DNA of 64,000 bases from positions 8,390 to 72,389 of the forward strand of contig JBFGKE010000014.1 of the NCBI GenBank assembly GCA_041576815.1, written 5' to 3'. This document shows, piece after piece, positions 9,730 through 50,584 of this stretch. Position 1 is the stretch's first letter. Each line of letters opens with the position of its first letter. This stretch comes from Polyangiales bacterium (GTDB taxonomy: Bacteria > Myxococcota_A > Polyangia > Polyangiales > Houyiibacteriaceae). The notes below the pieces were generated by a model that searched no databases, was not told where the DNA came from, and saw only the letters and a program-made list of their open reading frames with translations. The position numbers were made by a program, and so were the translations under genes.

Positions 9730-10749
9730 ATGCGAGCCCGGGCACCGATTCTTCTGTTGAGCCTGGCACTCTGCGCCTGCGCGACGGAGGGCACGACCGA
9801 CATCACCCCGACACTCACCTATTCTTTCGAACCGATCGCGGTGGGCCCGGGCGAAGAGGTGAGCGAAGTCTGTCAAAGTTGGACGCTCGACAACGATGAG
9901 ACGCTGTACGTCTCGAAGATTCGGCAGCGAAACGAAGGCGCCTGGCATCACTCGAACTGGTTTTTCGTTCCCGAGGACACTTATGATGGCCCGGACGGCA
10001 CGTGGGACTGCGCCGAGCGCGGCTTCCACGATGTGTCGGCTGCGCTCTCCGGCGGCGTGTTCTTTGCACAGTCCACGCAAACCTTCGAAGAGCTTCAGGC
10101 ATTTCAAGAGGGCGCGGCGCTCGAGATCCCGCCCCGGCATCGAATCGTCGGCGGGGTGCATCTCGTCAACGTATCGGCCTCCCCCATGGACACGGCGCTC
10201 AGCTTCGACATCGAAACCATCGACGAAGAGCAAGTCGACGTCCGCCTTCGGCCGATCGCATTCACCAACACGGCGCTCGACATCGAGCCCCAGGCCGAAT
10301 CGAGATTCGGCATGACCTGTGACCTGGGTGAGCCTTTCGATCGAATGCTCGGGGCGACGCCCGTCTACAACATCTATTACGTCCTCGCCCACTATCACGA
10401 ATGGGGCAACTACTTCCGGCTGAGCTTCGTCGATGAAGCCGGCGGCGATCGCACGGTCTTCGAGCTCAAGAGTGCAATCGGCGAGCCGCTCGGCGCGACT
10501 ATCGATCCCCCGATGAGCTCCAATGGCGCCTCCGGCCTCCGCGTGGAATGCGGCTACATCAACAACACCGATCGCCGACTGAAATACGGTCTTGGTGGGC
10601 AGGAGATGTGCGTGTTTCTAGCCTATAGCGACGCAGATTTGAAAATCGGCGCGGCGTCTTCGGCCAACACCGCCCTCGGCCCGAACGAAGAGGGTGTGTA
10701 CATGAACGAGACGTCCTGCGGCGCGGTGCTCGCTACGCCGGCGGAGTGA
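9730..10749 (+). CDS. Lipoprotein resembling copper type II ascorbate-dependent monooxygenases (PHM/DBH catalytic core)
   Basis: Trimmed from 9136..10749. MRARAPILLLSLALCAC lipobox (alt coupled GTG start at 9682). WHHSNW, GGVHLVN, AHYHEWG and GGQEMCVF occur in the order and spacing of PHM copper ligands HH..H / HxH..M. Confidence 0.6.
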   Translation: MRARAPILLLSLALCACATEGTTDITPTLTYSFEPIAVGPGEEVSEVCQSWTLDNDETLYVSKIRQRNEGAWHHSNWFFVPEDTYDGPDGTWDCAERGFHDVSAALSGGVFFAQSTQTFEELQAFQEGAALEIPPRHRIVGGVHLVNVSASPMDTALSFDIETIDEEQVDVRLRPIAFTNTALDIEPQAESRFGMTCDLGEPFDRMLGATPVYNIYYVLAHYHEWGNYFRLSFVDEAGGDRTVFELKSAIGEPLGATIDPPMSSNGASGLRVECGYINNTDRRLKYGLGGQEMCVFLAYSDADLKIGAASSANTALGPNEEGVYMNETSCGAVLATPAE

Positions 10750-11245
10750 CGCCGCGCACGCCAAACGGTTGGGGCTTCCACATCCGGATGCCGAGCAGAA
10801 ACGGGATCACCCAGTAGGGACCGTTGAAGGCCCAGAACACGAGAGGGTTTCCAGGTGGGGGCCCGATCCAATACTCGTAGATGAAGAACTCGGTGCAGCC
10901 GTGAAGCATCGCGCCGACGTAAACCAGCGCCATCGGCTGAATCCAGTTCTTGCCCTTGATGAAGGCGTACACGAGCAGCAGGTAAAACGGTCCGTACACC
11001 ATCCCGGAAATGCCGGTGTTGACTCGCACGTAAGGGTGATCCGCCAGGAAGAAGTGGTCCTGCGCGATCTCCCCGTACCAGCGGTTGGCGCGGGACCAAA
11101 AGGCGTCGCCTTCGAGCAGGCCGAGCGCGTGCCACGAATCGCTGAAGAAAGACGAGAAGGCGAAAAACGAGAAGCAAACCACGAAAAAAATGTCTTTTCT
11201 TCGCTCGCTCAGCGGTAGCCCTTCGCTCGTGCTCACCATCTGCAA
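10733..11245 (-). CDS. TMEM97 (sigma-2 receptor)/EXPERA-family four-TM membrane protein
   Basis: By-eye alignment to human TMEM97: NRWYGEIAQDHFF vs LKWYAKEFKDPLL; YAFIKGKNWIQPMALVY vs YAFLKGSCKWIRTPAIIY; GPYWVIPFLL vs APYLLIPFIL. 170 aa. Confidence 0.7.
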   Translation of the reverse strand: MQMVSTSEGLPLSERRKDIFFVVCFSFFAFSSFFSDSWHALGLLEGDAFWSRANRWYGEIAQDHFFLADHPYVRVNTGISGMVYGPFYLLLVYAFIKGKNWIQPMALVYVGAMLHGCTEFFIYEYWIGPPPGNPLVFWAFNGPYWVIPFLLGIRMWKPQPFGVRGVTPPA

Positions 11246-11444
11246 TTCCGCTCCCTCGCGCCTGCCCTGTTACTAGAAAGGCCACCTAGTTCACAAGAAA
11301 AGATTTTTCTGTGATCTCGTGAATGCATCGACGTCCGGCCCCGTCTGAGCGCCGCGAAACTTGGCCGAGATCGCTTGCGGCTGATCGTGGATCCGGTCAT
11401 ACCCCGGGCGCCCCGGCGTCGGGGCAGGAGAGAAAGGGCAAGAA

Positions 11445-11867
11445 ATGTTGAAAGAATTCAAGGAGTTTGCGCTCAAGGGCAATGTCATGGACATGGCCGT
11501 GGGCATCATCATCGGTGGCGCATTTGGCAAGATCATCGCATCGTTGGTGGCCGACGTGCTGATGCCGGTGGTCGGGCTGTTCACGGGCGACATCGACTTC
11601 AGCCAGAAATACATCCTGCTCGGTGATGGAAGCTTCGAGTCGCTGGCGGCCGCGGAGGAAGCCGGCGCCGCGGTGCTCAAGTATGGCGCCTTCATCATGA
11701 CGGTCTTCGACTTCGTCATCATCGCGTTCGTGATTTTCATGATGATTCGATGGATGAACTCCCTTCGCAAAAAGGAAGAGGCCGCCGAAGAGGCAGCGCC
11801 GCCGCCGCCCCCGAAGGAAGAGGTTCTCCTCGCAGAGATACGCGACATCCTGGCCAAGCAGCGATAG
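11445..11867 (+). CDS. mscL: Large-conductance mechanosensitive channel
   Basis: [31 protein letters not shown]...DVLMP, a canonical MscL N-terminus. 140 aa. Confidence 0.95.
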
Positions 11868-13215: not shown

Positions 13216-14112
13216 GTGAGCAGCTCGTACTACACCATCGTCAATCGCGCGGCTGGTGGCGGCCGTTGCGGAAAACTGGCCCCGGTTGCGCTCGAAGACC
13301 TCGAACGACGAGGGGTCGAGCTCGACGAGACGGTTTTCACTGAAGCCCCAAAGGATGCGATCGAGCTCGCGAAGCGCGGAGCGGCCGCGGGTCACCGCCG
13401 TTTCCTTTCGGTGGGTGGCGATGGGACCGCCGGCGAGGTCGTCCACGGGCTCGCCGAGGCCGGGGTGTCGCGGGAATGCACTCTCGCCATGCTCCCGCTC
13501 GGCACGGGAAATTCTTTTCTGCGCGACTTCGGGGTGACCAGCGTGGAGCAGGCTTCCGTTGCAATTGCGAGCGATCGAAGCCGACCCATCGACGTCCTTC
13601 GGCTCACGCACGAGGACGGCACCATCCACTTCATCAACACCATGGGGACGGGTTTCGTCGCCCAGGTCGGCGAGCTCGCAAACGAGCGGTTCAAATACCT
13701 CGGCGCCGGCGCCTACGTCGCCGCGGTGTTCCTTTGTATGATCCGGCTCCGGCACGAAGAGACCGTCCTCCGATACGACGGGGTCGTCGACGACCGAGCG
13801 ACCGTGCTGAGCGCGTTTTCGAACAGTCAGTACACGGGCGGCTCGATGCGCTTGGCGCCGGACGCACACGTTGCCGACGGCCTTCTCGATGTCGTGCGCG
13901 CTTCTCCGCGTGGCCGCGCCGCGCTTCTCGCAGCGTTCGTGCGCATCTTCTCGGGGACACACGTCGACCTGGACGACGTCTGGGCACACCAGGTCGATCG
14001 CGTCGATTTCGTCGATCCCACTCGGCAGGCTGTCCTCATCGATGGTGACCTTTTTCATCTCACACCACTTCACATCGACGTGCTGCCCGGCGCGATTCGA
14101 GTCGTGGCATGA
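13216..14112 (+). CDS. Diacylglycerol-kinase-catalytic-domain lipid kinase (YegS/LCB5 type)
   Basis: IVNRAAGGG..., SVGGDGTAGEVVHGL, LPLGTGNSFLRDF. GTG start. ATGA overlap with the next gene. Confidence 0.85.
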   Translation: MSSSYYTIVNRAAGGGRCGKLAPVALEDLERRGVELDETVFTEAPKDAIELAKRGAAAGHRRFLSVGGDGTAGEVVHGLAEAGVSRECTLAMLPLGTGNSFLRDFGVTSVEQASVAIASDRSRPIDVLRLTHEDGTIHFINTMGTGFVAQVGELANERFKYLGAGAYVAAVFLCMIRLRHEETVLRYDGVVDDRATVLSAFSNSQYTGGSMRLAPDAHVADGLLDVVRASPRGRAALLAAFVRIFSGTHVDLDDVWAHQVDRVDFVDPTRQAVLIDGDLFHLTPLHIDVLPGAIRVVA

Positions 14113-14852
14113 AGCGACCCATCACCCTCGTCGATCGAGCCGTCAGCGCGTTGATTTGGATCCTCGCGGGAGGGTTCCTGGTGGTGATGACGACCATCTT
14201 GGCCGTTTCTTACCGAATCGTGCCGGCCGACCGCCTTCAGTGGCTCGAGCGCTTCTATTGCCGGCTCCAGATCGCGTTGACGTTCAACCGCGTCACCCAT
14301 CACGTTCATCCCGCGGTCGACGCCGGCACGTCCTACATTTTTCTCCAGAACCACAGCAGCCAGCTCGACCACGTCGCGATGTACACTGCAACCCCTCACT
14401 TCAAGCAGGGCGTGGAGCTCGAAAGCCACTTCGCGTACCCGTTTTACGGTTGGCTGATGAAAGGCCGAGGGACGATTCCTGTGCCCGCCGGTCGCACGAA
14501 GGCGTTGCGTGCTCTGCGCGATGCAATACGCTCCGAAATCGATGCAGGCCATTCGGTGCTCGGCTTCCCCGAGGGCCACCGGACGATGACAGGACGCGTG
14601 GGCCGCTTCTATGATGGCTTGTTCTGGATCGCCGTAGAGCTAGGCGTCCCCGTCGTTCCGGTCGCAGTGACCGGCCTCTACGAGGTTCTTCACAAAGGCT
14701 CGCTGATCATTCGTCCGGGAAGCCGAATCGAGGTCTTCGTGGAGGAACCGATCGCGACCGAGAGCCTCGAAGCGCAGGACGTTGCCGCGCTTCGCGACCG
14801 CGTGAGGGACATCATTGCAGCGCGGGTCGATGCGCATTTCGCAGATGCGTAG
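14109..14852 (+). CDS. PlsC/LPLAT-family acyltransferase
   Basis: NHSSQLD (HX4D) and GFPEGHRT (EGTR-like) motifs, plus an N-terminal TM segment. Confidence 0.85.
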   Translation: MKRPITLVDRAVSALIWILAGGFLVVMTTILAVSYRIVPADRLQWLERFYCRLQIALTFNRVTHHVHPAVDAGTSYIFLQNHSSQLDHVAMYTATPHFKQGVELESHFAYPFYGWLMKGRGTIPVPAGRTKALRALRDAIRSEIDAGHSVLGFPEGHRTMTGRVGRFYDGLFWIAVELGVPVVPVAVTGLYEVLHKGSLIIRPGSRIEVFVEEPIATESLEAQDVAALRDRVRDIIAARVDAHFADA

Positions 14853-15758
14853 TCACCGGTTTCCTCGACGCGCACGCTTCGTCAGCGTGCGAAACAACCT
14901 CTGAAACATCGCGGCCTCGCGGGAGACGGGCTCGTGCTGATCTTTCTTGTCGCCCGATTCGGGATAGAGCTGATACGCCGCGTTGAGCACGCGGTCGACC
15001 GCGTTCGGCGCGATGCCGTACGCGAACTCGAAGAGGTTTCCAGCCGTGATCGCCACTCGTTTTGGTTGATCGATGATGCCCTCGACGATCAGGTCGGTTG
15101 CCTGCTCTGCATTTCGCATCGGGAAGCTATCGTAGATCGTGGTCGATTCCATCATCGGGGTCTTGACCAGCGGCATGTACACGGTGGTGACCTTGATCCC
15201 GTCTTTGAGCGCTTCGATCGCCAACACGCGGCAGAAGGCGTCCAGCGCAGCCTTGCTGGCGAGATAGGCCCCGTAGCGCGGAACGTTCACCTGCACGCCG
15301 ATGGTCGATACGTTGACGATTTGGCCCTCTTTGCGGGCGCGCATCCCAGGCAGGAAACCCATGATGAGACGAACGGCACCGAGGAAGTTGAGCGCGATCG
15401 TGCGCTCGAAATCATGCACGCGGTCGTACGACTTTGCCACGCTTCGCCGAATCGAAATCCCAGCATTGTTCACCAAGATGTCGACCTGACCGCGTTCGTC
15501 CAAGATCTTCTCGACCGCTCGGCGCGTGTCCTCTTCGCTCGAGAGGTCGCACGGATACACGAACGCCTTTCCCGACCGGGATTCGATGCGCCGCTGGAGC
15601 TCTCGTAGCTTGTCTTCCGAGCGCGCGATCAAAATCACTTCTGCATCCGCGTCGGCCAACCGATTGGCGAGGGCTTCGCCGATGCCGCTCGACGCGCCCG
15701 TCACGACGACGGTTCGGTCCGCAACTCTTTGGCGAAGCGCATCGTCCGTACGTTTCAT
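14853..15758 (-). CDS. Short-chain dehydrogenase/reductase
   Basis: VVVTGASSGIGEAL, NNAG, YLASKAAL catalytic YxxxK. Its stop abuts the stop of the convergent acyltransferase gene with 0 nt between. Confidence 0.9.
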   Translation of the reverse strand: MKRTDDALRQRVADRTVVVTGASSGIGEALANRLADADAEVILIARSEDKLRELQRRIESRSGKAFVYPCDLSSEEDTRRAVEKILDERGQVDILVNNAGISIRRSVAKSYDRVHDFERTIALNFLGAVRLIMGFLPGMRARKEGQIVNVSTIGVQVNVPRYGAYLASKAALDAFCRVLAIEALKDGIKVTTVYMPLVKTPMMESTTIYDSFPMRNAEQATDLIVEGIIDQPKRVAITAGNLFEFAYGIAPNAVDRVLNAAYQLYPESGDKKDQHEPVSREAAMFQRLFRTLTKRARRGNR

Positions 15759-15849
15759 AGTACCTCCTCCGCGTTGGGCGTGAGTCGCTGCTCGCCGAAC
15801 ACGAAAGCTTCGGGCCGCACGAGGCGGAAGTCGATCGCGGCCTTCTCGC

Positions 15850-17565
15850 TCAAGGGAGACGACGCTCCTCGTCGGGCATGTCGAGTGCGAGCGTGCCTCC
15901 CGGATTGAGGATGTTCTTCGGATCGAAGTGGCGCTTCAGCGCGCGAAACACCTCGAGCTCGTTCTTGCCGAGCTGCCCCTCTAGCCACGGCGCGGTCATC
16001 TTCCCGATTCCGTGGTGGTGGCTCATCGTCGCCCCAGACGACTGAATGGCATCCAGCAAGCCGCGGTGAAAGCCCACGAACTCATCGGCGCCCATCTTCG
16101 CGATGAAGATGAAATAGAGGTTCGCACCTTGCGGATAGCAGTGCGACATGTGCGCCATGCACACGGTTTGCGGGCGGCTCTTCACGTAGGCGCGCACGTG
16201 CTGATGCACGTGAGGCAATTGGTCCCAGCTCGTCGCACACTCGAGAGTGTCGATCAAAATCCCGAAGTCCTGCAGGTCCTCACGCATGTAAGGATCGGTG
16301 AAGCGGCCGTGCTCCCACTTCTTGGTGATGAAACCCGTCGCGTACATCCCCCCCTGCGCCCTGCACACACTTCGGATCCGTCGCTTGGCCATCGAGGTGT
16401 ACGCCGCGTCTCCATCGACCGTGCCGAGCATGAGGCAGCGCTCCCCCTTCTTGAACCCGCGAAGGCTCACCAGCGTGTCGATGGGGGTGCCTTCGACGCC
16501 GTAAAGCTTGAATGCGACGTCGGTTTCTTCGGGATCCGAAAGTCGAAACACCGATGGAAAGCCGAACTCGGCCTGCATGATCTCGCGGGCTGCAGCGGTG
16601 GCGCGAGCCCAGTCGGGAAAGATGAAGCTGAAGCGCCGCGTGTTCTCGGGCTGGTAGCGAAACACCTTGAGCGTGACTGCGACCAAGACTCCGAAGGCTC
16701 CCTCGCTGCCGATCATGATTTGGTCGAGGTTTGGGCCGGTCGCATAGGCGGGAACATCCACCGTGCGAATCGTGCCAACCGGCGTCACGTACTCCTGGCT
16801 CAAAACCAAGTCCTCGGCCTTGCCGTAGTACGTCGAGTTTTGGCCGGCCCCGCGCGTCACCACCCATCCGCCCGCCGACGAAAACTCGAACGACTGCGGA
16901 AAATGGCCGCAGGTATACGCGCGCGGCGCTCCGAACCGCCCGGGCGCGTCGTGGAGCGCTTCCTCGAGCGCCGGTCCCAAGATGCCGGGCTCCACCGTGA
17001 CCGTTTGATCGACCGCGTTGAGGGAGAGGACGCGATTCATGTGCTTGCCGAGATGAAGGGACACGCCCCCTCGCACGCACTCCGTGCCTCGCGTCACGCT
17101 CGAGCCGGCCCCGTAGGTGTAAAGCGGGATTTCCTGTTCGTGGCAGTAGCGGACGATCGCCTCGACGTCGTCTCTGTGACGGGGGTACAGCACGAGGTCG
17201 GGAAGGTTTTCGACGCGTTTCTCTCGAAGCCGAAGCGCGTCGAACATCGTCTTTCCGTACGATACGCGAACCCGCGCATAGACGTCCTCGCTGACATTGT
17301 CGTCACCGAGCAGATCGCGGAAGAAGCCTACTCGATCGGGGCTCAATGAGATTGGAACGTCGACCGCGACTTCTTCCAGGCCAAGGTGCTCGGGTGCGCG
17401 AAAATCGTCGTTGGTGAGCTCGAAAAGCTCCTTCATCAAGGCGTAGAGCCGCGGGTTCGGGTGCTTGTAGGCCTCCGGCGCGCCCCATTTGAAAGCGGAG
17501 CGATACGAGCGCGGAGGCAAAGCGCCCTCGAACCAGGGTGGCGTGAAGGATGGCTTGCCCGTCAT
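15850..17565 (-). CDS. FAD-linked oxidase of the alkyl-dihydroxyacetonephosphate synthase (AGPS) type
   Basis: Trimmed from 15850..17856 to ATG 17565. N-terminus FKWGAPEAYKHPNPRLY, FAD-binding PCMH-type region LYPRHRDDVEAIVRYCHEQEIPLYTYGAGSSV, C-terminal HHHGIG. Confidence 0.75.
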   Translation of the reverse strand: MTGKPSFTPPWFEGALPPRSYRSAFKWGAPEAYKHPNPRLYALMKELFELTNDDFRAPEHLGLEEVAVDVPISLSPDRVGFFRDLLGDDNVSEDVYARVRVSYGKTMFDALRLREKRVENLPDLVLYPRHRDDVEAIVRYCHEQEIPLYTYGAGSSVTRGTECVRGGVSLHLGKHMNRVLSLNAVDQTVTVEPGILGPALEEALHDAPGRFGAPRAYTCGHFPQSFEFSSAGGWVVTRGAGQNSTYYGKAEDLVLSQEYVTPVGTIRTVDVPAYATGPNLDQIMIGSEGAFGVLVAVTLKVFRYQPENTRRFSFIFPDWARATAAAREIMQAEFGFPSVFRLSDPEETDVAFKLYGVEGTPIDTLVSLRGFKKGERCLMLGTVDGDAAYTSMAKRRIRSVCRAQGGMYATGFITKKWEHGRFTDPYMREDLQDFGILIDTLECATSWDQLPHVHQHVRAYVKSRPQTVCMAHMSHCYPQGANLYFIFIAKMGADEFVGFHRGLLDAIQSSGATMSHHHGIGKMTAPWLEGQLGKNELEVFRALKRHFDPKNILNPGGTLALDMPDEERRLP

Positions 17566-17609
17566 GTGGTCTCTCTTTCGGCGCCGACCATAGCACCGGC
17601 GCGGCTCGG

Positions 17610-18788
17610 TCAGTATCGGCGTCGCTTCGGAGGAACCGGCATGTCCCACGGCGTTCCCATCAAGGCGAGCTTGATGCGTTGAAGCCGACTCGGTTGGGGA
17701 CGCTCCGGACGAAGGGGGAGCTCGTGCTCTTCGATCAGACCGGAGTCGAGACCCTCGATCAGCTCGAGCCTCCCGTACGGTCGCAGCAGCGCATTGACGG
17801 CTTCGCGATTGGGTGGTGCGAGGCCGCGATACGCGTCCTGGAGCACTTGAAGGCAAAACACCCGGTAGCGCACCACCCTGAGGTTTCGATACACCACCCC
17901 GTGCGCGCGATGATCGAGCCGCTTTTCACCCGCGGCCCAGGCCCGTGCGTTCGCGATCAAGAACGGCCAGTAGGACTGTGCGATCTCGCGGAGGAAGTAT
18001 GCCCAACCCGGCTGTGAGAAATCGCCGAGAGTCGGCTCCCGTCCAAGACGATGTGCACGCGCGTTCCATATGCGGCCCACCCACGCGAAGACTGCAGGGG
18101 CGCGCTCTTCCATGATCCGGCTTGGCGTCGGGTCTTGCGCGTAGTGCCGAAACATCGGACCGAACAAACCGAAGTCTACGAGCGTTGGGTGGCTGCCTAG
18201 AAGGTAGGGTTGCTCCTCCAGCAAGACGCTCATGCTGTCGAGGAGATCGAGATAGCTCTGCGCGATGACGGGCTCGGTCTCGGCGCTGAGGCCGTCGCCC
18301 CGGAGATAAGTGGCGATCTGACGGCGTCCATAGTACCAACCCGCAAGCCAGTTCGGCGCGGGGAAATCGTCGAGCACCTCGTGGCCGATCCGGCGCATCA
18401 ACAGCTTGCGCGACTCCTTCGGCTGCCAGCGCCAGTAGAGCGCCGCACGCCAGCACCACTCGTCGGCATAGTCCTCGACGAGCTTCGACATGAAACGAAG
18501 GACGGGGTCTCGTGGAATCACGGGCGGTTCGGGGTACCGCGAATCGAGCCACTCGATCATCGGCGTCGTATCTTTCAGCCATTGCCCGTTGGCGAGGCGA
18601 AGGACGGGTACCTTCATGAGCCCGGTTGCGGGAAGGATTTCATCCCGCAGCACCTTCATGTCGACGACGCGCCGCTCGAACGGAATCTCCTTGTAGCGCA
18701 GATAGGCCTCCATCTTGCCACTGAAGTACGACATGTCAGCGACGTAGGCGGTGATCGGCTCCCACTGCGGATGTCTCGTCTGCTGCAT
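17610..18788 (-). CDS. GST-like protein (thioredoxin-like N-domain plus long C-terminal helical region)
   Basis: Trimmed from 17610..19058 to ATG 18788. YFSGKMEAYLRYKEIPFE...GLMKVPVL...MIEWLDSRYPEPP matches the GST N-terminal pattern. Confidence 0.6.
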   Translation of the reverse strand: MQQTRHPQWEPITAYVADMSYFSGKMEAYLRYKEIPFERRVVDMKVLRDEILPATGLMKVPVLRLANGQWLKDTTPMIEWLDSRYPEPPVIPRDPVLRFMSKLVEDYADEWCWRAALYWRWQPKESRKLLMRRIGHEVLDDFPAPNWLAGWYYGRRQIATYLRGDGLSAETEPVIAQSYLDLLDSMSVLLEEQPYLLGSHPTLVDFGLFGPMFRHYAQDPTPSRIMEERAPAVFAWVGRIWNARAHRLGREPTLGDFSQPGWAYFLREIAQSYWPFLIANARAWAAGEKRLDHRAHGVVYRNLRVVRYRVFCLQVLQDAYRGLAPPNREAVNALLRPYGRLELIEGLDSGLIEEHELPLRPERPQPSRLQRIKLALMGTPWDMPVPPKRRRY

Positions 18789-22755: not shown

Positions 22756-23481
22756 TCATCGAACGAAGGGGATGCGAAGCCGCAGCAGGCGCATCCGATC
22801 TCGTGCAAGCGGCACGGTAGGGCTCTCGGGAAGATCCAGAGCGAGGCGAAATCGTCGCGCGCCAATGGGCTCGATTCGCCGGATTCGATCCAGCCGCACG
22901 ATGCAGCCCCTGTGGGACTGGAAGAACACCAAATCGTCGAGTTGCTCCGCGAGGCTCGCGAGGGTCCAGTCGATCTCGAAGCGGTCGCTGGCGGTGACCG
23001 CCCACACGAGCTCTTCGCGCGCCTCGAAGTACACGATGTCGCGGAGGTCGACGACGACGTAGGCACCCCTCCTTCGAACGGCAAAGCCCTGCAGCTTTGA
23101 GGCCGAAGACGGGCACGCACGCACCTCTGCCACCCGCTCGAGCGTGCGTTGCAACCGCTCGAGCCTAACCGGCTTGAGCAAATAGTCGGTCACGCGCGCG
23201 TCAAAGCCGCGAATCGCGCCATCATCGTGTGCGGACACGATGACGACGTCGAGGTCGGGCTGCTGTTGACGAAGCGCCTCTGCCAGCACGAGTCCGTCCT
23301 GCCCGGGCATGCGCAGGTCGACGAACGCGACCTCCGGGCGAGTCTCTTCACAGAGCCGTTGGGCCTCCGAAGCAGACGGCGCCTCGCCAACGACTTCGAC
23401 GCTTTGGCACTGGCCGAGCAGGAAAGCGAGCTCGTCGCGTGCTAGCGGCTCGTCGTCGACGATGATCGCACGAAGTGTCAC
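22756..23481 (-). CDS. Response regulator with LytTR DNA-binding domain
   Basis: Trimmed from 22756..24444 to GTG 23481, which overlaps the fni stop (GTGA). Receiver: IIVDDEPLARDEL...FVDLRMPG...YLLKP. LytTR: DIVYFEAREELVWAV...FFQSHRGCIVRLDRI. Confidence 0.85.
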   Translation of the reverse strand: MTLRAIIVDDEPLARDELAFLLGQCQSVEVVGEAPSASEAQRLCEETRPEVAFVDLRMPGQDGLVLAEALRQQQPDLDVVIVSAHDDGAIRGFDARVTDYLLKPVRLERLQRTLERVAEVRACPSSASKLQGFAVRRRGAYVVVDLRDIVYFEAREELVWAVTASDRFEIDWTLASLAEQLDDLVFFQSHRGCIVRLDRIRRIEPIGARRFRLALDLPESPTVPLARDRMRLLRLRIPFVR

Positions 23482-24575
23482 GGGGTGTCCCCAGAGACCC
23501 TCAACCAGGCGTCGAGCTCGCCCGTCACCACGCGAGGCGCGCGGTGGAGCTCTGCGACCGTCCGCGCGCCCGTGAGCAGCATCACGGCGCGCAGCTCTCC
23601 AATCACTTCGTCGAGCCGCTCTCGGAGTCCTACTTCGCCGCCGTTCACGAACGCTTGCAAGACCGGTCTTGCGATCCCGCCTGCGTGGGCACCGAGCGCA
23701 ATCGCGCGGGCGACATCGAGCCCCGAGCGAATACCGCCCGTTGCGACGACGGTCATCGAGGCACGCGCTGCATACCGCACCGAAGCGGCGGTTGGGATTC
23801 CCCAATCCCAGAGCTCGCGCCCCAAGCTCCGCCGGGATCCTTGGGCACGCAGCGTCTCGACACCGACCCACGAGGTCCCTCCCGAGCCCGACGTGTCGAC
23901 GTAACGGATGCCCGCCGAGGCGAGCTTTTCGATCGTTTGCGGGCTCAGCCCATTGCCGGTTTCCTTGGCAATGACCGGGAATGGAAGCTCTTTGCAGAGC
24001 CGTTCGAGGGTCTTTACGCAGCCGCGGAAGTCGCGATCGCCCTCGGCTTGAATGAGCTCCATGGCAGGATTGAGATGTACGCAGAGTGCATCGGCGCCGA
24101 CGTCTGCGACGAGACGTTCGAGGTCTTTGGTGGAGGTTTCGCGCGCTTGCACGACACCGATGTTGCCGAGGAGCAGCACGTCCGGCGCCCACTCGCGCAC
24201 TCGATACGTCCACCGAGTGCCGGCATCGCGTTGCATTGCGCGCTGACTTCCGAGACCGAAGCCGAGCCCTCGAGATTGCGCCGCAGTCGCGAGGGCGCGG
24301 TTGATCTCGGCTGCGCGTTCGTGTCCGCCGGTCATCGCAGCGATGATGAGCGGTGCCTGAAGCCGCCGACCGAGGAGGTCGATCGACAGGCTCACCTCGT
24401 CCGTCGCTAGCTCGGGAAGTGACTGATGGAGAAGGTGCACGCACTCGAGAAGGGTGCTTTTGGCGCGAAAGCCGACTTCGTCACCTGCACACAAATCGAG
24501 GTGGTCTGCTTTGCGGGCACCGATGTCCGCATTGCCTTCCGCAATGCTGGCCCGCTCAAGCCGTGGCGCGGGCAT
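23478..24575 (-). CDS. fni: Type 2 (FMN-dependent) isopentenyl-diphosphate isomerase
   Basis: RKADHLDL, APLIIAAMTGG, GLGFGLGSQR, GGTSW, VVATGGIRSG. Confidence 0.9.
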   Translation of the reverse strand: MPAPRLERASIAEGNADIGARKADHLDLCAGDEVGFRAKSTLLECVHLLHQSLPELATDEVSLSIDLLGRRLQAPLIIAAMTGGHERAAEINRALATAAQSRGLGFGLGSQRAMQRDAGTRWTYRVREWAPDVLLLGNIGVVQARETSTKDLERLVADVGADALCVHLNPAMELIQAEGDRDFRGCVKTLERLCKELPFPVIAKETGNGLSPQTIEKLASAGIRYVDTSGSGGTSWVGVETLRAQGSRRSLGRELWDWGIPTAASVRYAARASMTVVATGGIRSGLDVARAIALGAHAGGIARPVLQAFVNGGEVGLRERLDEVIGELRAVMLLTGARTVAELHRAPRVVTGELDAWLRVSGDTP

Positions 24576-25656
24576 GGCCTCGAAGCGTTTCGTACCGCCA
24601 CATGTCGACCGGCTCCCGGCGCCTGACGTCCTCGTCGACGTCGGCGGCCCAACGACCTTCCACAGCTCTGGGGCCGGCCGAGAGCTCGAGCAGCTCCGAC
24701 CCGTAGCCTGACCCGTAAGAGAAAGCCGCGACGCGCGTACCTTCGCTCAAACCGGCCAGCGCATGCGCAACGGAGATCCAAAGGCTGGCGGTGTACGCAT
24801 TGCCGCTCAGCCGGTTCCACTCGAGGGTGTCTTCGACCTTTTCTTGGTAGAACCGCTCCGCGTCGAGCGGCGACCACCCCGCACGTTCACCGAAGTGGAG
24901 AACCGCCTTCTTGACCATCTTGGGAAACGGGACGTGAAAGCAGATCCGACGGTACTCGGACAGCGCTGTCTTCGGATCGCGCTCACCGATGAGCTTGCCA
25001 AAGCACTCGCTGACGGCTTCGCGGTAGCAGTCGAGGCTCAACTGCCCGTCGACCGACGGAAACGCGTCGCCGACGGGTCGCCAGAAATCAAACGCGGGTT
25101 TGCTGAACGGAAACGAAGTCGGCGCGATCTCGGCTACCAACGGCTCGTCGACGATCATCGCAACGGCGCCCGCACCTTGGGTCGGCTCGCCCGGATCGCC
25201 GGGCGCGTAGAGCGCGACGTCCGAAGCGATCACGAGCGCGGCCTTTCCTGCACCTGCGCCGGACCATTTCCACTCGAGCGCTTGGCGTAACGCGAGCGTA
25301 CCGCCGTAGCAGGCGTGTTTCACCTCGTACGAACGAATGGCGCCCGACAGGCCCAACTCCGCGGCGACCCATGCGCTCAGCGGACGGCTCATGTCCTTTG
25401 CGCTTTCGGTTCCGACCGCGATCAGACCGATGTCCACAGCCGACCCCTTCCAGCGCGAAAGCGCCCTTTTCGCGGCTCCAACGGCCAGTGTAACCGCGTC
25501 CTCGCCCGGCGGACAAAGCGCGATGTCTCGGCAGTCTAGCCCCTTCGTGAACTTGTCGGGGTCCACTCGTCGAAGCTCCGCGAGCTCGGTAACCGGCATG
25601 AAAAGCGGGGGTAGCTGAAGTCCGATCGATGCAATGCCTGCGCGCTTGTCGTTCAT
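24556..25656 (-). CDS. mvaS: Hydroxymethylglutaryl-CoA synthase
   Basis: Trimmed to ATG 25656, which is preceded by GGGAGG. Thiolase-like: AGIASIGLQLP, EDAVTLAVGAA, KHACYGGT, SYGSGYGS. Overlaps the fni start by 20 nt. Confidence 0.9.
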   Translation of the reverse strand: MNDKRAGIASIGLQLPPLFMPVTELAELRRVDPDKFTKGLDCRDIALCPPGEDAVTLAVGAAKRALSRWKGSAVDIGLIAVGTESAKDMSRPLSAWVAAELGLSGAIRSYEVKHACYGGTLALRQALEWKWSGAGAGKAALVIASDVALYAPGDPGEPTQGAGAVAMIVDEPLVAEIAPTSFPFSKPAFDFWRPVGDAFPSVDGQLSLDCYREAVSECFGKLIGERDPKTALSEYRRICFHVPFPKMVKKAVLHFGERAGWSPLDAERFYQEKVEDTLEWNRLSGNAYTASLWISVAHALAGLSEGTRVAAFSYGSGYGSELLELSAGPRAVEGRWAADVDEDVRRREPVDMWRYETLRGHARATA

Positions 25657-25982
25657 TGATTTGCCTCCCGTATCGTGGTGACCACGCAAGTCTATGTACT
25701 GCCTCGCGTGAACGATGAACGTAAAAAGATGTGACTCGTTCGTGAAGTTGGATCAGCGGTTCACACTGAACGTTGAACCGAGATCAACAGCGATCGATGT
25801 CGACTAAGCCAACGCAAAGTAAAGTTGTGCACGTGTCGCCGTCGATCCAAGACGACACGCTGTAAAGATTCGGAACACGTCGAACCGTTCGTGTGCGGAT
25901 TGGGACGATCGAACCAGCGCGACGATCCGCCGAGCCGATTGTTCTAGCGACCGCAGACCGGCGCTGGATACTGACATGCGAG
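25657..25982. promoter_or_regulatory. Divergent promoter region (mvaS operon / sterol operon) packed with TGAACG/CGTTCR repeats
   Basis: Lower GC than its flanks. tgaacgatgaacg (25709-25721), cgttcgtg (25737-25744), cggttcacactgaacgttgaaccg (25757-25780, nested palindromes), ccgttcgtg (25885-25893). Confidence 0.55.
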
Positions 25983-27362
25983 ATGGAATCGTTTCGCGAC
26001 GAGATCTCGATGGGGGGGATCAAAAATCACTACGACGCCGTAGTCGTTGGCGCCGGTCCAGGCGGTTGTGCGGCGGCGGCATCCCTTGCAGTGCGTGGCG
26101 CGACGGTGTTGCTCGTCGAGTCGAATCCGCGGGCGGCGCGTCGATTTGCAGGCGAGTGGATCCACCCTGCAGGCGTTCGGGTCCTGCGAGAGCTCGGGCT
26201 TCTCGATGAGCTTCGTCCCAGCGTTTCGTCCCACGGCTTCGCAGTGCTGCCGAACGACGGGCTCGGACCGATCGAGCTCGACTATCCCGACGGCGAAGGG
26301 CTGTGCTGCGAGCACGCGACGCTGGTTCGGCACGTTCGCAAGCGCGTTTCCGAGCTGCACGGTGTGCACTACGTCGAAGGCGTCCGCGCCCGGCTCGTCG
26401 GCGACGGAGCGGTCGAGCTCGCCATCGACCACGGAGAACGGGCCCGGGTTCACGCAGAGAAAGTGATCGTGGCCGCCGGCCGATCGTACCGAAAGGCACG
26501 AGCGGTGCCGGCCGGCGTCGCGTCGATCTCCCAAATGGCGGGGCTCATCATCAACGATGCGGCGCTTCCCTTCGAAGGGTATGGGCACGTGATCCTCGGC
26601 GGCCCCGGTCCTGCGCTGGCGTACCGGATCGACGACCAACGGGTTCGAGTATGCCTCGACGTGCCGAGCTCGATTCGGCCCGGAGCGACGACGACGAGGT
26701 GGATTGGAGAGTCGTTCGCGGACGTTCTGCCGCGTTCACTGAGGGACGGCTTTCGAGACAGCCTCGCCCAGGCGCCGATCGTGTGGGCATCGAACTCGTT
26801 TGGGCCCCGGGACTACGACGGGGCGGGGGTAGCTCTCGTCGGAGACGCCGCTGGCTTCTTTCACCCCTTGACCGCGATGGGCATCACCATGTCGGTTCTC
26901 GACGCCCAGTCAGCCGCGCGCGACGACGCGCGCGAGCATCATGCAGCGCGTCGAGCCCGCGAGACACACGTCCCGGAGCTACTCTCGAACGCGATCTACC
27001 AGGCGTTTACTCGAGACGACCCCGGGTCACTCGAGATTCGGAACGCCATCCTTCGAACCTGGCGGGCCAACGACGCCCAGCGAAGGCGGACGATGAGGCT
27101 GCTGGCGGCAGACGACACCAACAGGGCCGAGTTTCTACGCGCGTTCGCCATCGTTGCGGCGAGAGCCGGAGTGCACGCAGCCGCGCGCAATCCAGAGGCT
27201 CTGCCTGGGTTGGTGAATTGGCTTCGCTGGCCGTGGGCGAGCCTGCACGCACATCGCGAGGTGCGCCGTCGATCGGTTTCTTGGGCGGCGCCGGAGTCGT
27301 GGAGCACACGGGGACGGATCGGCCCGCTCATCGCGGGGAGGGAGAGGCAGCATGCAAACTGA
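25983..27362 (+). CDS. FAD-dependent squalene monooxygenase (epoxidase)-like enzyme
   Basis: DAVVVGAGPGG dinucleotide fold. FAGEWIHPAG resembles the squalene-epoxidase GELLQPGG. VALVGDAAGFFHPLTAMGITM resembles GDA.NMRHPLTGGGMT. Start ATG 25983 or 26010. Confidence 0.75.
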   Translation: MESFRDEISMGGIKNHYDAVVVGAGPGGCAAAASLAVRGATVLLVESNPRAARRFAGEWIHPAGVRVLRELGLLDELRPSVSSHGFAVLPNDGLGPIELDYPDGEGLCCEHATLVRHVRKRVSELHGVHYVEGVRARLVGDGAVELAIDHGERARVHAEKVIVAAGRSYRKARAVPAGVASISQMAGLIINDAALPFEGYGHVILGGPGPALAYRIDDQRVRVCLDVPSSIRPGATTTRWIGESFADVLPRSLRDGFRDSLAQAPIVWASNSFGPRDYDGAGVALVGDAAGFFHPLTAMGITMSVLDAQSAARDDAREHHAARRARETHVPELLSNAIYQAFTRDDPGSLEIRNAILRTWRANDAQRRRTMRLLAADDTNRAEFLRAFAIVAARAGVHAAARNPEALPGLVNWLRWPWASLHAHREVRRRSVSWAAPESWSTRGRIGPLIAGRERQHAN

Positions 27363-28428
27363 CTGGGATTTCTGCACGGAGAGCTTGAGAAACGTGTCCC
27401 GCACGTTCTCACGGCCGATCGAGGTGCTGCGTGACGATCTACGACGGTCCGTCACCTGCGGATACTTGCTTTGCCGCATCGTCGATACGATCGAGGACAA
27501 CCCGCGGTTCACGGTGAACGAACGTGACGAACGCTATCGCGCCTTTCACGACGTGCTGCGTAGTGCAACGGATGGTCGAGCGTTCGAGCGCTCGTGGGAA
27601 ACGGTCGAGGGATCCCCAGAGCACGAGGTTCGGCTCTGTGCACAGGTCCGCCGCGTCATGGCCGTGCTCGACCACGTGCCCCACGAGATGCGCACCGCCG
27701 TGTTGCGATGGGTCTCGGAAATGGCCCGCGGCATGCAGATCTACAGTCACCGTTCGGCGGATCGCGACGGTGTGATCGCACCGACGACCAGCGAGGACCT
27801 GCAGCGCTACTGCTACTTCGTGGCTGGGACCGTCGGCAACATGCTCACGGAGCTGTTCGTTATCGAAATCGGCCTCGACGCTGATGACCCAGTGACACAG
27901 CGGCTCTACGCGCACGCAGAGGCGTTTGGGACCGGCCTTCAGCTCGTCAACATCCTCAAGGACGTCGGGGACGACATGAAGCGCGGCTGGTCATTCGTTC
28001 CGAGATCGCTTTGCCAGACCGAGGGCCTTCGCAACCAACAGCTCACGGACCCGAGCCGTCGAACGGATGCGCATCGCGCCGTCGCCCCCCTATTCCAGCT
28101 CGCGCGCGTGAACCTCGACCGCGCCCTGACGTACGCGCTTGCCGTGCCGCCAAACCACCGAGATATACGTCTGTTCTGCTTGCTACCGCTGTGGTTGGCG
28201 GTGAAGACGGTGGCTGTCGCATACGGCAACGACGCGATGTTCACCGACAGCGAACCGGTCAAGGTGAGTCGACAGGAAGTCGAGGCGGTCATCGAGCATT
28301 GCATGAGTGCATGCGGGGACGACGCGCGGCTGCGGGCCAATTACGAGGCGATGTGGAACCCGGTGGTTCGACTCATGGTTGCGGACTCCGGCGCCGAAGG
28401 TTGGTCCTCGGGTTTGGACGCGGCATGA
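27352..28428 (+). CDS. Squalene synthase (squalene/phytoene synthase family)
   Basis: SRTFSRPI, YLLCRIVDTIEDN (first Asp-rich box), YCYFVAGTVG, GLQLVNILKDVGDD (second box). Confidence 0.85.
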   Translation: MQTDWDFCTESLRNVSRTFSRPIEVLRDDLRRSVTCGYLLCRIVDTIEDNPRFTVNERDERYRAFHDVLRSATDGRAFERSWETVEGSPEHEVRLCAQVRRVMAVLDHVPHEMRTAVLRWVSEMARGMQIYSHRSADRDGVIAPTTSEDLQRYCYFVAGTVGNMLTELFVIEIGLDADDPVTQRLYAHAEAFGTGLQLVNILKDVGDDMKRGWSFVPRSLCQTEGLRNQQLTDPSRRTDAHRAVAPLFQLARVNLDRALTYALAVPPNHRDIRLFCLLPLWLAVKTVAVAYGNDAMFTDSEPVKVSRQEVEAVIEHCMSACGDDARLRANYEAMWNPVVRLMVADSGAEGWSSGLDAA

Positions 28429-41526: not shown

Positions 41527-43411
<1,885 letters not shown>

Positions 43412-43462
43412 GGGGGCGGAGTATATGGAAGGGTGCCGCTCGCCGCTACGGAAAGCGACCGA

Positions 43463-44536
43463 ATGAAATCCAACAAACGACGCCTCTCCTTTCGCGATCG
43501 CTACCTGACCCTCTGGATCTTCGCCGCCATGGGCTTCGGCGTGGCGCTCGGCCGCCTCGTCCCGGGCGTCGCCGACGCGCTCGATGCGATGAGCATCGGG
43601 ACGACGTCGATTCCAATAGCCGTCGGGTTGATCCTCATGATGTACCCGCCGCTCGCCAAAGTCCGTTACGAGAAGATGGGGCGGATCTTTCGAAACAAGA
43701 AGGTTCTCTCTCTGTCGCTCGTCCAGAACTGGATCATCGGGCCGATGCTGATGTTCGGGCTGGCGATCACGTTTCTGCCGGACAAGCCCGAGTACATGGT
43801 AGGGCTGATCGTAATCGGCCTGGCGCGCTGCATCGCCATGGTCATCGTGTGGAACGACCTCGCCCGCGGCGATCGCGAGTACGCGGCGGGACTGGTGGCG
43901 TTCAATTCGATCTTCCAGATCCTGTTCTTTTCCATATACGCGTGGTTTTTCGTGACCTGGCTGCCCGGGAAGCTCGGCCTCGAAGGCGCCGTGGTCGACA
44001 TCACGATCGGCGAGATCGCAAAAAGCGTCGCCATCTATCTCGGTATCCCGTTCGCGGCCGGTTTCCTCACGCGCTATTTTCTGATCAAATCCAAGGGGCG
44101 CGAATGGTTCGAACGATCCTTTGCGCCGAAGATCGCCCCCATCACGCTCGTTGCCCTTCTGTTCACCATCGTGGTGATGTTCTCGCTCAAGGGAGACATG
44201 ATCGTCGAGCTTCCCTTTGATGTGGTGCGCGTCGCCATTCCGCTCCTGATCTACTTCGTAGTGATGTTTTTCGTTTCGTTCTTGCTCTCCAAGGTCGCGG
44301 GCGCCAACTACGAAGAGGCGACGACGCTGTCTTTCACCGCGGCCTCCAACAACTTCGAGCTGGCGATTGCCGTGGCCGTTGCGACCTTCGGCATCCACCA
44401 CGGCGCGGCGTTTGCGACGGTCATCGGACCGCTGGTCGAGGTGCCGGTGCTGATCGGCCTCGTGAACGTCGCCCTTCGGATCCGCAAACGCTACCGTCCC
44501 GCCATGGTCGAGGCCGAGGCTACCGCCGAAAGCTAG
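43463..44536 (+). CDS. acr3: ACR3-family arsenite efflux permease
   Basis: Trimmed to ATG 43463. [47 protein letters not shown]. Confidence 0.9.
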
Positions 44537-50563: not shown

Positions 50564-50584
50564 AAAGGGGACAGTCCCCTTTTT
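50562..50584. terminator. Bidirectional hairpin terminator built on the GGGGACAGTCCCC element
   Basis: aaaaaGGGGacagtCCCCttttt sits exactly between the stop codons of convergent genes (TAA 50561-50563, TGA complement 50584-50586). Confidence 0.65.

What the first reader, a model, noticed from the sequence alone, without database searches (positions are those of the whole stretch)
10733..11245. Bacterial homologue of the eukaryotic sigma-2 receptor TMEM97 / EXPERA (EBP-type) sterol-handling fold
Seen: a 170-aa four-TM protein aligns by eye along its whole length with human TMEM97 (FSDSW vs FMDLQ, NRWYGEIAQDHFF vs LKWYAKEFKDPLL, YAFIKGKNWIQPMALVY vs YAFLKGSCKWIRTPAIIY, GPYWVIPFLL vs APYLLIPFIL). 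This includes both Asp residues (human D29 and D56) that are needed for ligand binding. Established: the EXPERA fold comprises TMEM97 (sterol/oxysterol binding, NPC1 partner), EBP (sterol delta8-delta7 isomerase) and TM6SF proteins, and is overwhelmingly eukaryotic. Inference: in a genome that encodes sterol synthesis 12 kb away, this is a candidate bacterial sterol isomerase, sensor or carrier.
Basis: partly seen in the sequence, partly recalled or inferred. Interest (0 to 1): 0.7.

Follow-up and report, generated by a model that had tools for sequence, protein, structure and literature searches.

The report
Bacterial sigma-2/TMEM97-like sterol-pocket membrane protein
A sterol-making myxobacterium encodes a small membrane protein that really is a relative of the human sigma-2 receptor (TMEM97), and related bacterial copies sit inside sterol gene clusters, so bacteria may offer a simple system for finding out what this poorly understood protein family does.

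Summary
Window 10733-11245 (-) is a real 170-aa, four-helix gene. It passes the Pfam EXPERA threshold and aligns end to end with human TMEM97 (hhalign 96.9%). Its AlphaFold model matches only sigma-2 receptor and EBP structures.

The protein belongs to the TMEM97 branch, not the EBP branch. It lacks EBP's catalytic His76 and Glu122, and none of about 105 relatives has them. It also lacks TMEM97's second pocket acid (Ser80 instead). Across the family, one carboxylate sits at position 36 or at position 80, in a swap pattern.

The 12-18 kb distance to the window's sterol genes is not conserved synteny. Homologues are nevertheless tied to sterol genes repeatedly:
- inside cyanobacterial sterol operons that also carry an ERG2/sigma-1-type isomerase;
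- next to a sterol methyltransferase cluster in the window's own clade;
- directly after a delta14-sterol-reductase homologue in Spirochaetota;
- overlapping or fused with DUF1295 reductase-like proteins.

Bacteroidota copies show no such context.

Best reading: a sterol-binding accessory protein, not the delta8-delta7 isomerase. Databases already label such proteins EXPERA/DUF2781; none has been studied.

The parts
10733..11245 (-). EXPERA-fold (TMEM97/sigma-2-like) membrane protein gene, 170 aa. Model helices: 17-40, 49-61 and 64-67 (loop cap), 71-97, 102-127, 134-154.
   Evidence: ORF and codon-position GC; Pfam PF05241; hhalign to TMEM97; AlphaFold2 model and Foldseek; 82 homologues.
11251..11255 (-). 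Likely Shine-Dalgarno sequence GGGAG, 5 nt before the TTG start at 11245. An alternative ATG start is at 11239.
   Evidence: Read directly from the minus strand. No sigma-70-like promoter was found in the scan.
11138..11140 (-). Codon for Asp36, the single buried pocket carboxylate. It is equivalent to TMEM97 Asp29 and EBP Glu80.
   Evidence: hhalign; HMM alignment to EBP; Asp or Glu in 91 of 105 relatives, with a swap to position 80 in others.
11057..11059 (-). Codon for Asp63, in the loop-1 cap. It is equivalent to TMEM97 Asp56 and EBP Asp108.
   Evidence: Invariant in A1; Asp in 98 of 106 sequences; aligned to bovine D56 by HMMER.
11006..11008 (-). Codon for Ser80, which stands where TMEM97 has Glu73 and EBP has Thr125. 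It covaries with position 36.
23478..32776 (.). Context: mevalonate and sterol block. IDI2 (23478-24575 -), HMG-CoA synthase (24556-25689 -), squalene epoxidase (25893-27362 +), squalene synthase (27352-28428 +), HMG-CoA reductase (within ORF 28011-29723 +), oxidosqualene cyclase (29713-31749 +), FPP synthase (31706-32776 +).
   Evidence: Pfam; cyclase closest to human lanosterol synthase; same gene order in L082; block absent between ACAD2 and BKACE in L015, L019, L021 and L124.
13216..17856 (.). Context: the neighbourhood that is actually conserved in the closest relatives. Lipid kinase (13216-14112 +), acyltransferase (14109-14852 +), SDR (14853-15758 -), alkyl-DHAP synthase homologue (15850-17856 -). 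This looks like an ether-lipid gene set.
   Evidence: Pfam; AGPS 2uuu E=4.4e-70; synteny in L003, L008, L010, L029, L044, L091, L092 and L111.
11445..11867 (+). MscL gene on the opposite strand. It separates the EXPERA gene from the upstream same-strand gene, so the EXPERA gene is monocistronic here.
   Evidence: Pfam MscL E=2.9e-46. The same arrangement occurs in L091.

Best explanation
This is a real gene for a four-helix EXPERA-fold inner-membrane protein of the TMEM97/sigma-2 branch.

Shown: the fold, and conservation of a pocket with one buried carboxylate (Asp36, backed by Ser80), surrounding tyrosines (Y57, Y88, Y109, Y144) and a capping loop held by Asp63.

Inferred: a sterol or sterol intermediate enters sideways from the bilayer and is held in this pocket, as cholesterol is in sigma-2 receptor and TM6SF1. 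The protein then serves as an accessory to membrane sterol-modifying enzymes, as a substrate holder, hand-off partner or sensor. The likeliest partners are C=C reductases of the ERG4/ERG24 and DUF1295 type. It is not the pathway's EBP-type delta8-delta7 isomerase.
For: Fold and family:
- Pfam EXPERA 43.9 bits.
- Profile hits to TM6SF1, sigma-2 and EBP.
- hhalign 96.9% to TMEM97 but 35% to EBP.
- Foldseek finds only sigma-2 and EBP.

Pocket:
- 101 of 105 relatives have an acid at position 36 or 80. These two positions are 3 A apart in sigma-2 (bioRxiv 10.1101/2021.04.29.441652).
- The pattern is D/S in 63 sequences and the reverse in 10, at three or more separate places in the tree.

Sterol context in homologues:
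- Rivularia and Calothrix copies lie between a Rieske oxygenase and a GGR-like reductase. The same-strand operon also holds SQS, ERG24, SQMO-OSC, ERG2, 3beta-HSD and CYP51.
- In the window's clade (72-74% identity), L051, L139, L143 and L146 have EXPERA-SDR beside FAD_binding_4, a KshA-like Rieske protein and a sterol methyltransferase.
- In Spirochaetota a MaSR1-like delta14-sterol reductase (4quv, E=4.5e-130) lies 72-320 bp upstream on the same strand, in L054, L055, L063, L064, L077 and L084-L089.
- In actinomycete MAGs a DUF1295 gene overlaps the EXPERA start (L060, L062). P0361 and P0451 are DUF1295-EXPERA fusions.

Against catalysis:
- His76 and Glu122 equivalents are absent family-wide.
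- An ERG2-type isomerase is already present in the cyanobacterial operon.
- Sigma-2 and TM6SF1 bind cholesterol but do not convert zymostenol to lathosterol (bioRxiv 10.1101/2021.04.29.441652; 10.64898/2026.04.01.715928).
- Human TMEM97 knockout accumulates FF-MAS, the substrate of delta14-reductase (PMC13382799). This parallels the reductase pairing.
Against: - No binding or activity data exist for any bacterial member.
- In the window the gene is monocistronic, and its conserved neighbours are ether-lipid genes rather than sterol genes.
- Bacteroidota copies, Catellatospora and most Myxococcota loci show no sterol gene within 10 kb.
- Genes embedded in biosynthetic operons are more often enzymes than accessories.
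- The human TMEM97 study found no co-immunoprecipitation with TM7SF2 (PMC13382799).
- Model coordinates could not be inspected, so pocket geometry is inferred from alignment to sigma-2.
- Each phylum-level association may stem from a single ancestral event.
Confidence: 0.45

Rival explanations
1. It is a catalytic sterol double-bond isomerase (delta8 to delta7, or another shift such as to or from delta8(14)). It would use Asp36 as the general acid/base, with Tyr or Ser partners. It would be a bacterial counterpart of EBP that replaces or supplements the ERG2-type enzyme.
For: - It sits in biosynthetic operons.
- In Spirochaetota it takes the place beside the delta14-reductase gene that a 'C-8 isomerase' gene holds in Methylomicrobium (MEALZ_1312/1311; PMC10202945, Supplementary Data 1). 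This looks like non-orthologous displacement.
- Six of the eleven EBP residues found essential by alanine scanning are kept or conservatively replaced: E80/D36, Y104/Y57, D108/D63, T125/S80, N193/N141, W196/Y144 (PMC4263179).
- At positions 36 and 80 the acid-plus-hydroxyl pattern matches EBP (Glu80/Thr125) better than TMEM97.
Against: - Equivalents of His76 and Glu122, two of EBP's three catalytic residues, are absent from all of about 105 relatives.
- Sigma-2 and TM6SF1, which keep more of these residues, are inactive as isomerases (bioRxiv 10.1101/2021.04.29.441652; 10.64898/2026.04.01.715928).
- The cyanobacterial operons carry both this gene and an ERG2-type isomerase.
- hhalign to EBP gives only 35% probability.
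Confidence: 0.22
2. It handles a membrane lipid other than sterols, for example ether lipids, polyprenols or other isoprenoids, or oxidised fatty acids. The sterol links seen in some lineages would then be secondary recruitments.
For: - The neighbourhood conserved in the closest Myxococcota relatives is AGPS, SDR, acyltransferase and lipid kinase, not sterol genes.
- Bacteroidota and Catellatospora copies have unrelated neighbours.
- DUF1295 partners are not known to be sterol-specific.
- One relative is fused to a lipoxygenase (P0357).
- No OSC was seen near the spirochaete pairs.
Against: - Every characterised EXPERA protein binds or converts sterols.
- Sterol-specific genes (OSC, ERG24, ERG2, CYP51, sterol methyltransferase) recur beside homologues in three phyla, including the window's own clade.
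- The window genome itself encodes an OSC.
Confidence: 0.2
3. It is a sterol-responsive sensor or scaffold that couples membrane sterol level to another process. This is what is proposed for TM6SF1 and TMEM97 in animals. It would take no part in biosynthesis.
For: - The gene is monocistronic in the window, beside MscL and envelope genes.
- TM6SF1 and TMEM97 are described as cholesterol-binding regulators (10.64898/2026.04.01.715928; PMC13382799).
Against: - No signalling partner recurs beside it.
- Operon embedding and fusions point to enzymes as partners.
Confidence: 0.1
4. It is a chance ORF, or a spurious similarity between hydrophobic low-complexity sequences.
For: Single-sequence phmmer against PDB gave no TMEM97 or EBP hit. 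NCBIfam has no model for it.
Against: - The Pfam score is above threshold.
- Homologues are 46-95% identical across many metagenomes.
- Invariant polar residues match TMEM97 motifs.
- The model is confident and its fold match is specific.
Confidence: 0.01

Closest known systems
TMEM97 / sigma-2 receptor (human; bovine structures 7M93-7M96, 7MFI)
   Same: - Same size and four-helix EXPERA topology.
- Full-length profile alignment (96.9%).
- Best size-normalised structural match (TM 0.72-0.76).
- Conserved R8/E11 (R15/D18), D29 (D36), Y50 (Y57), D56 (D63), P79 (P86), the YAF-KG motif, Y103 (Y109), the PY-IP motif (P143, Y144, P148) and an acidic residue after helix 3 (E124).
   Different: - The second pocket acid, Glu73, is Ser80.
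- His21, Gln77 and Tyr147 are Phe28, Tyr84 and Asn141.
- There is no ER-retention tail.
- It is bacterial.
- About 22% identity.
EBP, the delta8-delta7 sterol isomerase (human structures 6OHT, 8W0R)
   Same: - Same EXPERA core fold (TM 0.66-0.69).
- Acids at EBP positions 80 and 108 are kept.
- Thr125, Asn193, Tyr104 and Trp196 have conservative counterparts.
- Like the EBP-DHCR7 pairing in animals (my own knowledge), bacterial relatives pair with ERG4/ERG24-type reductases.
   Different: - Catalytic His76 and Glu122 are missing (S32, T77).
- EBP's extra N-terminal helix is absent.
- The profile match is weak (E=0.003; hhalign 35%).
TM6SF1 / TM6SF2 (structure 10up)
   Same: Best PDB sequence hit of the family profile (E=4.4e-9), aligning over the full second EXPERA repeat. 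These proteins bind cholesterol and are not isomerases (10.64898/2026.04.01.715928).
   Different: TM6SF proteins have ten helices with two EXPERA repeats. This protein has one repeat. Tandem forms do exist among relatives (P0332 from a Heimdallarchaeota MAG, and P0393).
Bacterial 'C-8 sterol isomerase' of Enhygromyxa, Calothrix and Methylomicrobium (Lee et al. 2023, PMC10202945)
   Same: Encoded in the same kinds of bacterial sterol clusters, and adjacent to delta14-reductase genes in methanotrophs.
   Different: That protein is of the ERG2/sigma-1 type. Pfam ERG2_Sigma1R scores E=5.8e-61 for the gene at L052 8384-8980. It has an unrelated fold and coexists with the EXPERA gene in the same cyanobacterial operon.

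Membership tests
EXPERA superfamily (Pfam PF05241) | Score above the Pfam gathering threshold | tested here: met
   43.9 bits against a cut-off of 25.7, E=3.3e-11, residues 51-155.
EXPERA superfamily (Pfam PF05241) | Four-transmembrane-helix bundle superposable on EBP and sigma-2 | tested here: met
   AlphaFold2 pLDDT 92.5. Foldseek hits are only EBP and sigma-2, TM 0.66-0.76, probability 1.0.
EXPERA superfamily (Pfam PF05241) | Conserved acidic residues at EBP positions 80 and 108 (Sanchez-Pulido and Ponting 2014, PMC4263179) | tested here: met
   D36 and D63. D63 is invariant and D36 nearly invariant.
TMEM97 / sigma-2 receptor family | Full-length homology to TMEM97, closer than to EBP | tested here: met
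   hhalign 96.9% over 150 columns, against 35% for EBP. HMM 38.7 bits against 20.5 bits.
TMEM97 / sigma-2 receptor family | Asp29 and Asp56 equivalents | tested here: met
   D36 and D63.
TMEM97 / sigma-2 receptor family | Second conserved pocket acid (Glu73), hydrogen-bonded to Asp29 | tested here: not met
   Ser80 in the window protein. The pair is D/S in 63 of 105 relatives. Two acids occur only in a clade that holds human TMEM97, E. huxleyi and Heimdallarchaeota sequences.
TMEM97 / sigma-2 receptor family | High-affinity binding of sigma-2 ligands or cholesterol | not testable with these tools
   Requires binding assays.
EBP-type delta8-delta7 sterol isomerase | Catalytic triad His76, Glu80, Glu122 | tested here: not met
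   The equivalents are S32, D36 and T77. No relative has His at position 32 or an acid at position 77.
EBP-type delta8-delta7 sterol isomerase | Five helices, with an extra N-terminal helix, about 230 aa | tested here: not met
   170 aa and four transmembrane helices.
EBP-type delta8-delta7 sterol isomerase | Isomerase activity (zymostenol to lathosterol; erg2 rescue) | not testable with these tools
   Requires an experiment.
TM6SF family | Two tandem EXPERA repeats, ten helices | tested here: not met
   Single repeat.
Bacterial sterol biosynthesis gene cluster component | Co-transcribed with, or adjacent to, sterol pathway genes | tested here: inconclusive
   - Window: monocistronic, 12-18 kb from the block, and the synteny is not conserved.
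- Homologues: inside operons in two cyanobacteria; beside a sterol methyltransferase cluster in four contigs of the same clade; after ERG24 in Spirochaetota.
- No sterol context in Bacteroidota.
Bacterial sterol biosynthesis gene cluster component | Genome-level co-occurrence with OSC | not tested
The other contigs of those genomes could not be read.

The most novel reading that the evidence does not exclude
TMEM97-like EXPERA proteins and membrane sterol C=C reductases (ERG4/ERG24 and DUF1295 types) form an ancient two-part module that predates eukaryotes. The EXPERA partner holds or presents the unsaturated sterol to the reductase. This single idea would explain four things:
- the bacterial operon pairs and fusions;
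- the animal EBP-DHCR7 complex;
- the accumulation of the delta14-reductase substrate FF-MAS in human TMEM97 knockouts;
- why sigma-2 looks like an enzyme but has no activity of its own.

Bacterial operons that hold both a sigma-1-type (ERG2) and a sigma-2-type (EXPERA) gene would then be the simplest system for defining sigma-2 biochemistry.
Probability: 0.18. Interest if true: 0.8.

Novelty: new member of a known kind. Interest (0 to 1): 0.6.

Why it matters
- The biochemical role of TMEM97/sigma-2, a drug and imaging target, is unresolved. It has an enzyme-like pocket, binds cholesterol and has no known activity. A bacterial relative with a simpler one-acid pocket, encoded next to defined sterol enzymes, could be tested in E. 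coli sterol-producing hosts.
- For bacterial sterol biology it adds an unassigned but recurrent cluster gene. No paper found here discusses it.
- For evolution it shows that the TMEM97 branch of EXPERA, like OSC, CYP51, ERG24 and ERG2, has bacterial members. A possible Asgard member also exists, though it rests on one 3-kb contig.
- The window protein itself is an ordinary member of this bacterial clade.

Tried and rejected
- **P450 neighbour.** The P450 gene divergently adjacent to the EXPERA gene in many Myxococcota loci (L022, L027, L031, L100, L125-L127 and others) was considered as CYP51. Its best PDB matches are CYP97/LUT5, CYP4 and BM3, not CYP51. It does not count as sterol evidence.
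- **GGR-like reductase near L014.** It clustered with the cyanobacterial C-24-reductase-like gene by BLASTP, but was not recovered by tblastn at 1e-8. Dropped.
- **Window Rieske oxygenase (3280-4422) as SdmA.** It shows no similarity to the cyanobacterial SdmA or KshA-like genes.
- **Equal contig length (5837 bp)** of an OSC contig and the EXPERA contig L032 suggested one contig. They are different records.
- **Genome-level co-occurrence with OSC.** I tried to match assembly prefixes of OSC-bearing contigs. Only CAJIBU01 holds both (L081, L091), and it is held in the metagenome-contig collection, so it may be a whole-community assembly rather than a single genome and this is not informative.
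- **Negative or uninformative searches.** Single-sequence PDB search and NCBIfam found nothing. The promoter and terminator scan found nothing useful.
- **Gene-call error.** My first call for 28341-29915 (-) was wrong. The real gene there is HMG-CoA reductase on the plus strand.
- **NJ tree.** The tree of 106 sequences is star-like. It is used only to show that the acid swap occurs in separate places, not for deep phylogeny.
- **Search bias.** Both homologue scans used one short peptide pattern each, so divergent clades are under-sampled.
Full report
**The gene**

Window 10733-11245 (minus strand) is an ORF of 170 codons. It starts at TTG, with GGGAG 5 nt upstream, and there is an in-frame ATG two codons later. 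GC by codon position (0.54/0.42/0.81) is the coding pattern for this 63% GC window. MscL lies on the opposite strand just upstream. A convergent lipoprotein gene overlaps the 3' end by 17 bp. The gene therefore stands alone here.

**Fold and family**

- Pfam EXPERA (PF05241) matches at E=3.3e-11, 43.9 bits, against a cut-off of 25.7. NCBIfam has no model, and a single-sequence PDB search fails.
- A profile of 38 homologues (A1) finds TM6SF1 (E=4.4e-9), sigma-2 receptor (7.4e-9) and EBP (0.003) among PDB sequences.
Against EBP it gives only 35%.
- The AlphaFold2 model is confident (pLDDT 92.5). Foldseek against the PDB returns only EBP and sigma-2 chains (TM 0.66-0.76) before dropping to noise.

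**Residues**

- Residues conserved between the bacterial family and TMEM97 are R15/D18 (R8/E11), D36 (D29), Y57 (Y50), D63 (D56), P86, the YAF-KG motif, Y109 (Y103), and P143, Y144 and P148.
- TMEM97's second pocket acid, Glu73, is Ser80 here. In sigma-2 it lies 3 A from Asp29 (bioRxiv 10.1101/2021.04.29.441652).
- EBP's triad is His76, Glu80, Glu122 (10.64898/2026.04.01.715928). Here the equivalents are S32, D36 and T77.
- I aligned 106 sequences: representatives from an exhaustive profile search plus labelled sequences. In that set 101 of 105 have an acid at position 36 or 80. The pair is D/S in 63 and reversed in 10, including the cyanobacterial operon copies, at three or more separate places in the tree. 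Both positions are acidic in 15, including human TMEM97, Emiliania and a Heimdallarchaeota protein. None has an EBP-like His at 32 or an acid at 77. Fisher's exact test gives p=6e-5, not corrected for phylogeny.
- One carboxylate at this spot therefore appears to be the conserved requirement.

**Distribution**

- The profile finds 786 clusters (at 50% identity) among 1.84 billion representatives at E<=1e-3, and 319 at E<=1e-10. The family is small.
- Carriers include many Myxococcota MAGs (70-95% identical). Cyanobacteria (Rivularia, Calothrix rhizosoleniae), Spirochaetota/Leptospirales, Bacteroidota and Actinomycetota carry copies at 31-45% identity.
- NCBI already names them DUF2781, EXPERA or emopamil-binding family proteins.
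- I found no paper that discusses bacterial members.

**The window's sterol genes**

A block at 23.5-32.8 kb holds IDI2, HMGS, squalene epoxidase, squalene synthase, HMG-CoA reductase, an OSC and FPP synthase. The OSC's best PDB hit is human lanosterol synthase. Contig L082 has the same order. In L015, L019, L021 and L124, however, the flanking genes ACAD2 and BKACE abut, and the EXPERA gene is retained nearby. The proximity is therefore not conserved. What is conserved in the closest relatives is an ether-lipid-like set: a lipid kinase, an acyltransferase, an SDR, and an alkyl-DHAP synthase homologue (2uuu, E=4e-70).

**Context of homologues**

1. *Cyanobacteria.* In Rivularia sp. MS3 (L052) and C. 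rhizosoleniae (L053) the gene lies mid-operon on one strand. The order is SQS, ERG24-type reductase, SQMO-OSC fusion, ERG2/sigma-1-type isomerase, KshA-like Rieske protein, EXPERA, GGR-like reductase, 3beta-HSD/epimerase, CYP51, Rieske SdmA-like protein.
2. *The window's own clade.* In four contigs (L051, L139, L143, L146; 72-74% identity) an EXPERA-SDR pair sits beside FAD_binding_4, a KshA-like Rieske protein and a sterol methyltransferase with the Sterol_MT_C domain. Bacterial enzymes of this kind are known from marine Sandaracinus-type MAGs (PMC10070321).
3. *Spirochaetota.* In five species-level genomes and further contigs, a full-length ERG4/ERG24 gene precedes the EXPERA gene by 72-320 bp on the same strand. 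That gene's best PDB hit is the Methylomicrobium delta14-sterol reductase 4quv (E=4.5e-130).
4. *Actinomycetota.* In two MAGs a DUF1295 gene overlaps the EXPERA start. P0361 and the Emiliania protein P0451 are DUF1295-EXPERA fusions.
5. *No sterol context.* Bacteroidota copies and Catellatospora sp. KI3 have unrelated neighbours.

The P450 that often sits next to Myxococcota copies is not CYP51.

**Mechanism**

All characterised non-EBP EXPERA proteins (sigma-2, TM6SF1) hold cholesterol in the intramembrane pocket. In direct tests they fail to isomerise zymostenol (bioRxiv 10.1101/2021.04.29.441652; 10.64898/2026.04.01.715928). The bacterial clade keeps even fewer EBP catalytic residues, and it coexists with an ERG2-type isomerase in cyanobacterial operons. 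The isomerase annotated in bacteria by Lee et al. (PMC10202945) is 43% identical to yeast ERG2.

I therefore favour a sterol-binding accessory that works with membrane sterol enzymes, especially ERG4/ERG24- and DUF1295-type reductases (confidence 0.45). Human TMEM97 knockouts accumulate FF-MAS, the substrate of delta14-reductase (PMC13382799), which fits this pairing. That study found no co-immunoprecipitation.

The rivals are a non-canonical isomerase (0.22), a non-sterol lipid role (0.20), a sensor or scaffold (0.10) and an artefact (0.01).

**Limits**

- No experiment exists for any bacterial member.
- Model coordinates could not be inspected.
- Genome-level co-occurrence with OSC could not be tested.
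- The homologue scans relied on single peptide patterns.
- Each phylum-level association may reflect one ancestral event.

**Verdict**

The protein is a new, uncharacterised bacterial member of a known superfamily. It is interesting mainly because of the cross-phylum sterol-gene context found here.

Noticed in passing
window 13216-17856: A eukaryote-like ether-lipid gene set: a DAGK/YegS-type lipid kinase, an acyltransferase, an SDR and an alkyl-DHAP synthase homologue (PDB 2uuu, E=4.4e-70). It is syntenic with the EXPERA gene in the closest Myxococcota relatives.
   Followed up: partly
window 23478-32776; L015, L019, L021, L124; L082: The mevalonate-plus-sterol block (IDI2, HMGS, SQMO, SQS, HMGR, OSC, FPPS) behaves as a 9-kb insertion or deletion between ACAD2 and BKACE. 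It is present in the window and in L082, and absent in several relatives.
   Followed up: partly
window 50584-56277: A GMC oxidoreductase (cholesterol-oxidase-like family), a 427-aa 3beta-HSD family protein and a divergent FAD_binding_2 protein (the family of ketosteroid dehydrogenases). This may be a second steroid-modifying locus.
   Followed up: no
L052 8384-10501; L053: A sigma-1-type (ERG2_Sigma1R, E=5.8e-61) gene and a sigma-2-type (EXPERA) gene lie in the same cyanobacterial sterol operon, separated only by a KshA-like Rieske oxygenase gene.
   Followed up: partly
L052 4924-8268; P0137-P0202: Squalene epoxidase and oxidosqualene cyclase are fused into one protein of about 1110-1150 aa in cyanobacteria and in many Myxococcota, Sandaracinaceae and Polyangium sequences. 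The window has them as separate genes.
   Followed up: no
P0332 (TFG08474.1), 3-kb contig: A tandem-EXPERA protein of 368 aa with TM6SF-like architecture, labelled Candidatus Heimdallarchaeota, scores E=1.7e-38 against the bacterial profile. It groups with human TMEM97 in the NJ tree and has both pocket acids. The short contig means contamination cannot be excluded.
   Followed up: partly
P0357 / P0464 (719 aa, metagenomic): An N-terminal EXPERA domain is fused to a lipoxygenase domain.
   Followed up: no
window 5742-8345: An 867-aa protein combines a TonB C-terminal domain (residues 60-136) with the plug and beta-barrel of a TonB-dependent receptor. This is an unusual fusion.
   Followed up: no
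L042, L051 (CAXMND01, labelled 'uncultured Coxiellaceae'): These contigs are 61-63% GC and carry Myxococcota-like genes, including two EXPERA copies and a sterol methyltransferase cluster. The bin label looks wrong.
   Followed up: partly
L012 and L025 (both from MAG MFD09779.bin.2.182): One bin holds two EXPERA loci with the same flanking synteny (87% and 82% identity to the window protein). This suggests a mixed bin or a large duplication.
   Followed up: no
window 43337-44536: A 399-aa protein of the sodium/bile-acid symporter family (SBF, E=2.5e-63) in a sterol-producing genome.
   Followed up: no
L022, L027, L031, L100, L125-L127, L131, L154: A CYP97/CYP4-like P450 (not CYP51) is divergently adjacent to the EXPERA gene in one Myxococcota subclade. 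Its substrate is unknown.
   Followed up: partly
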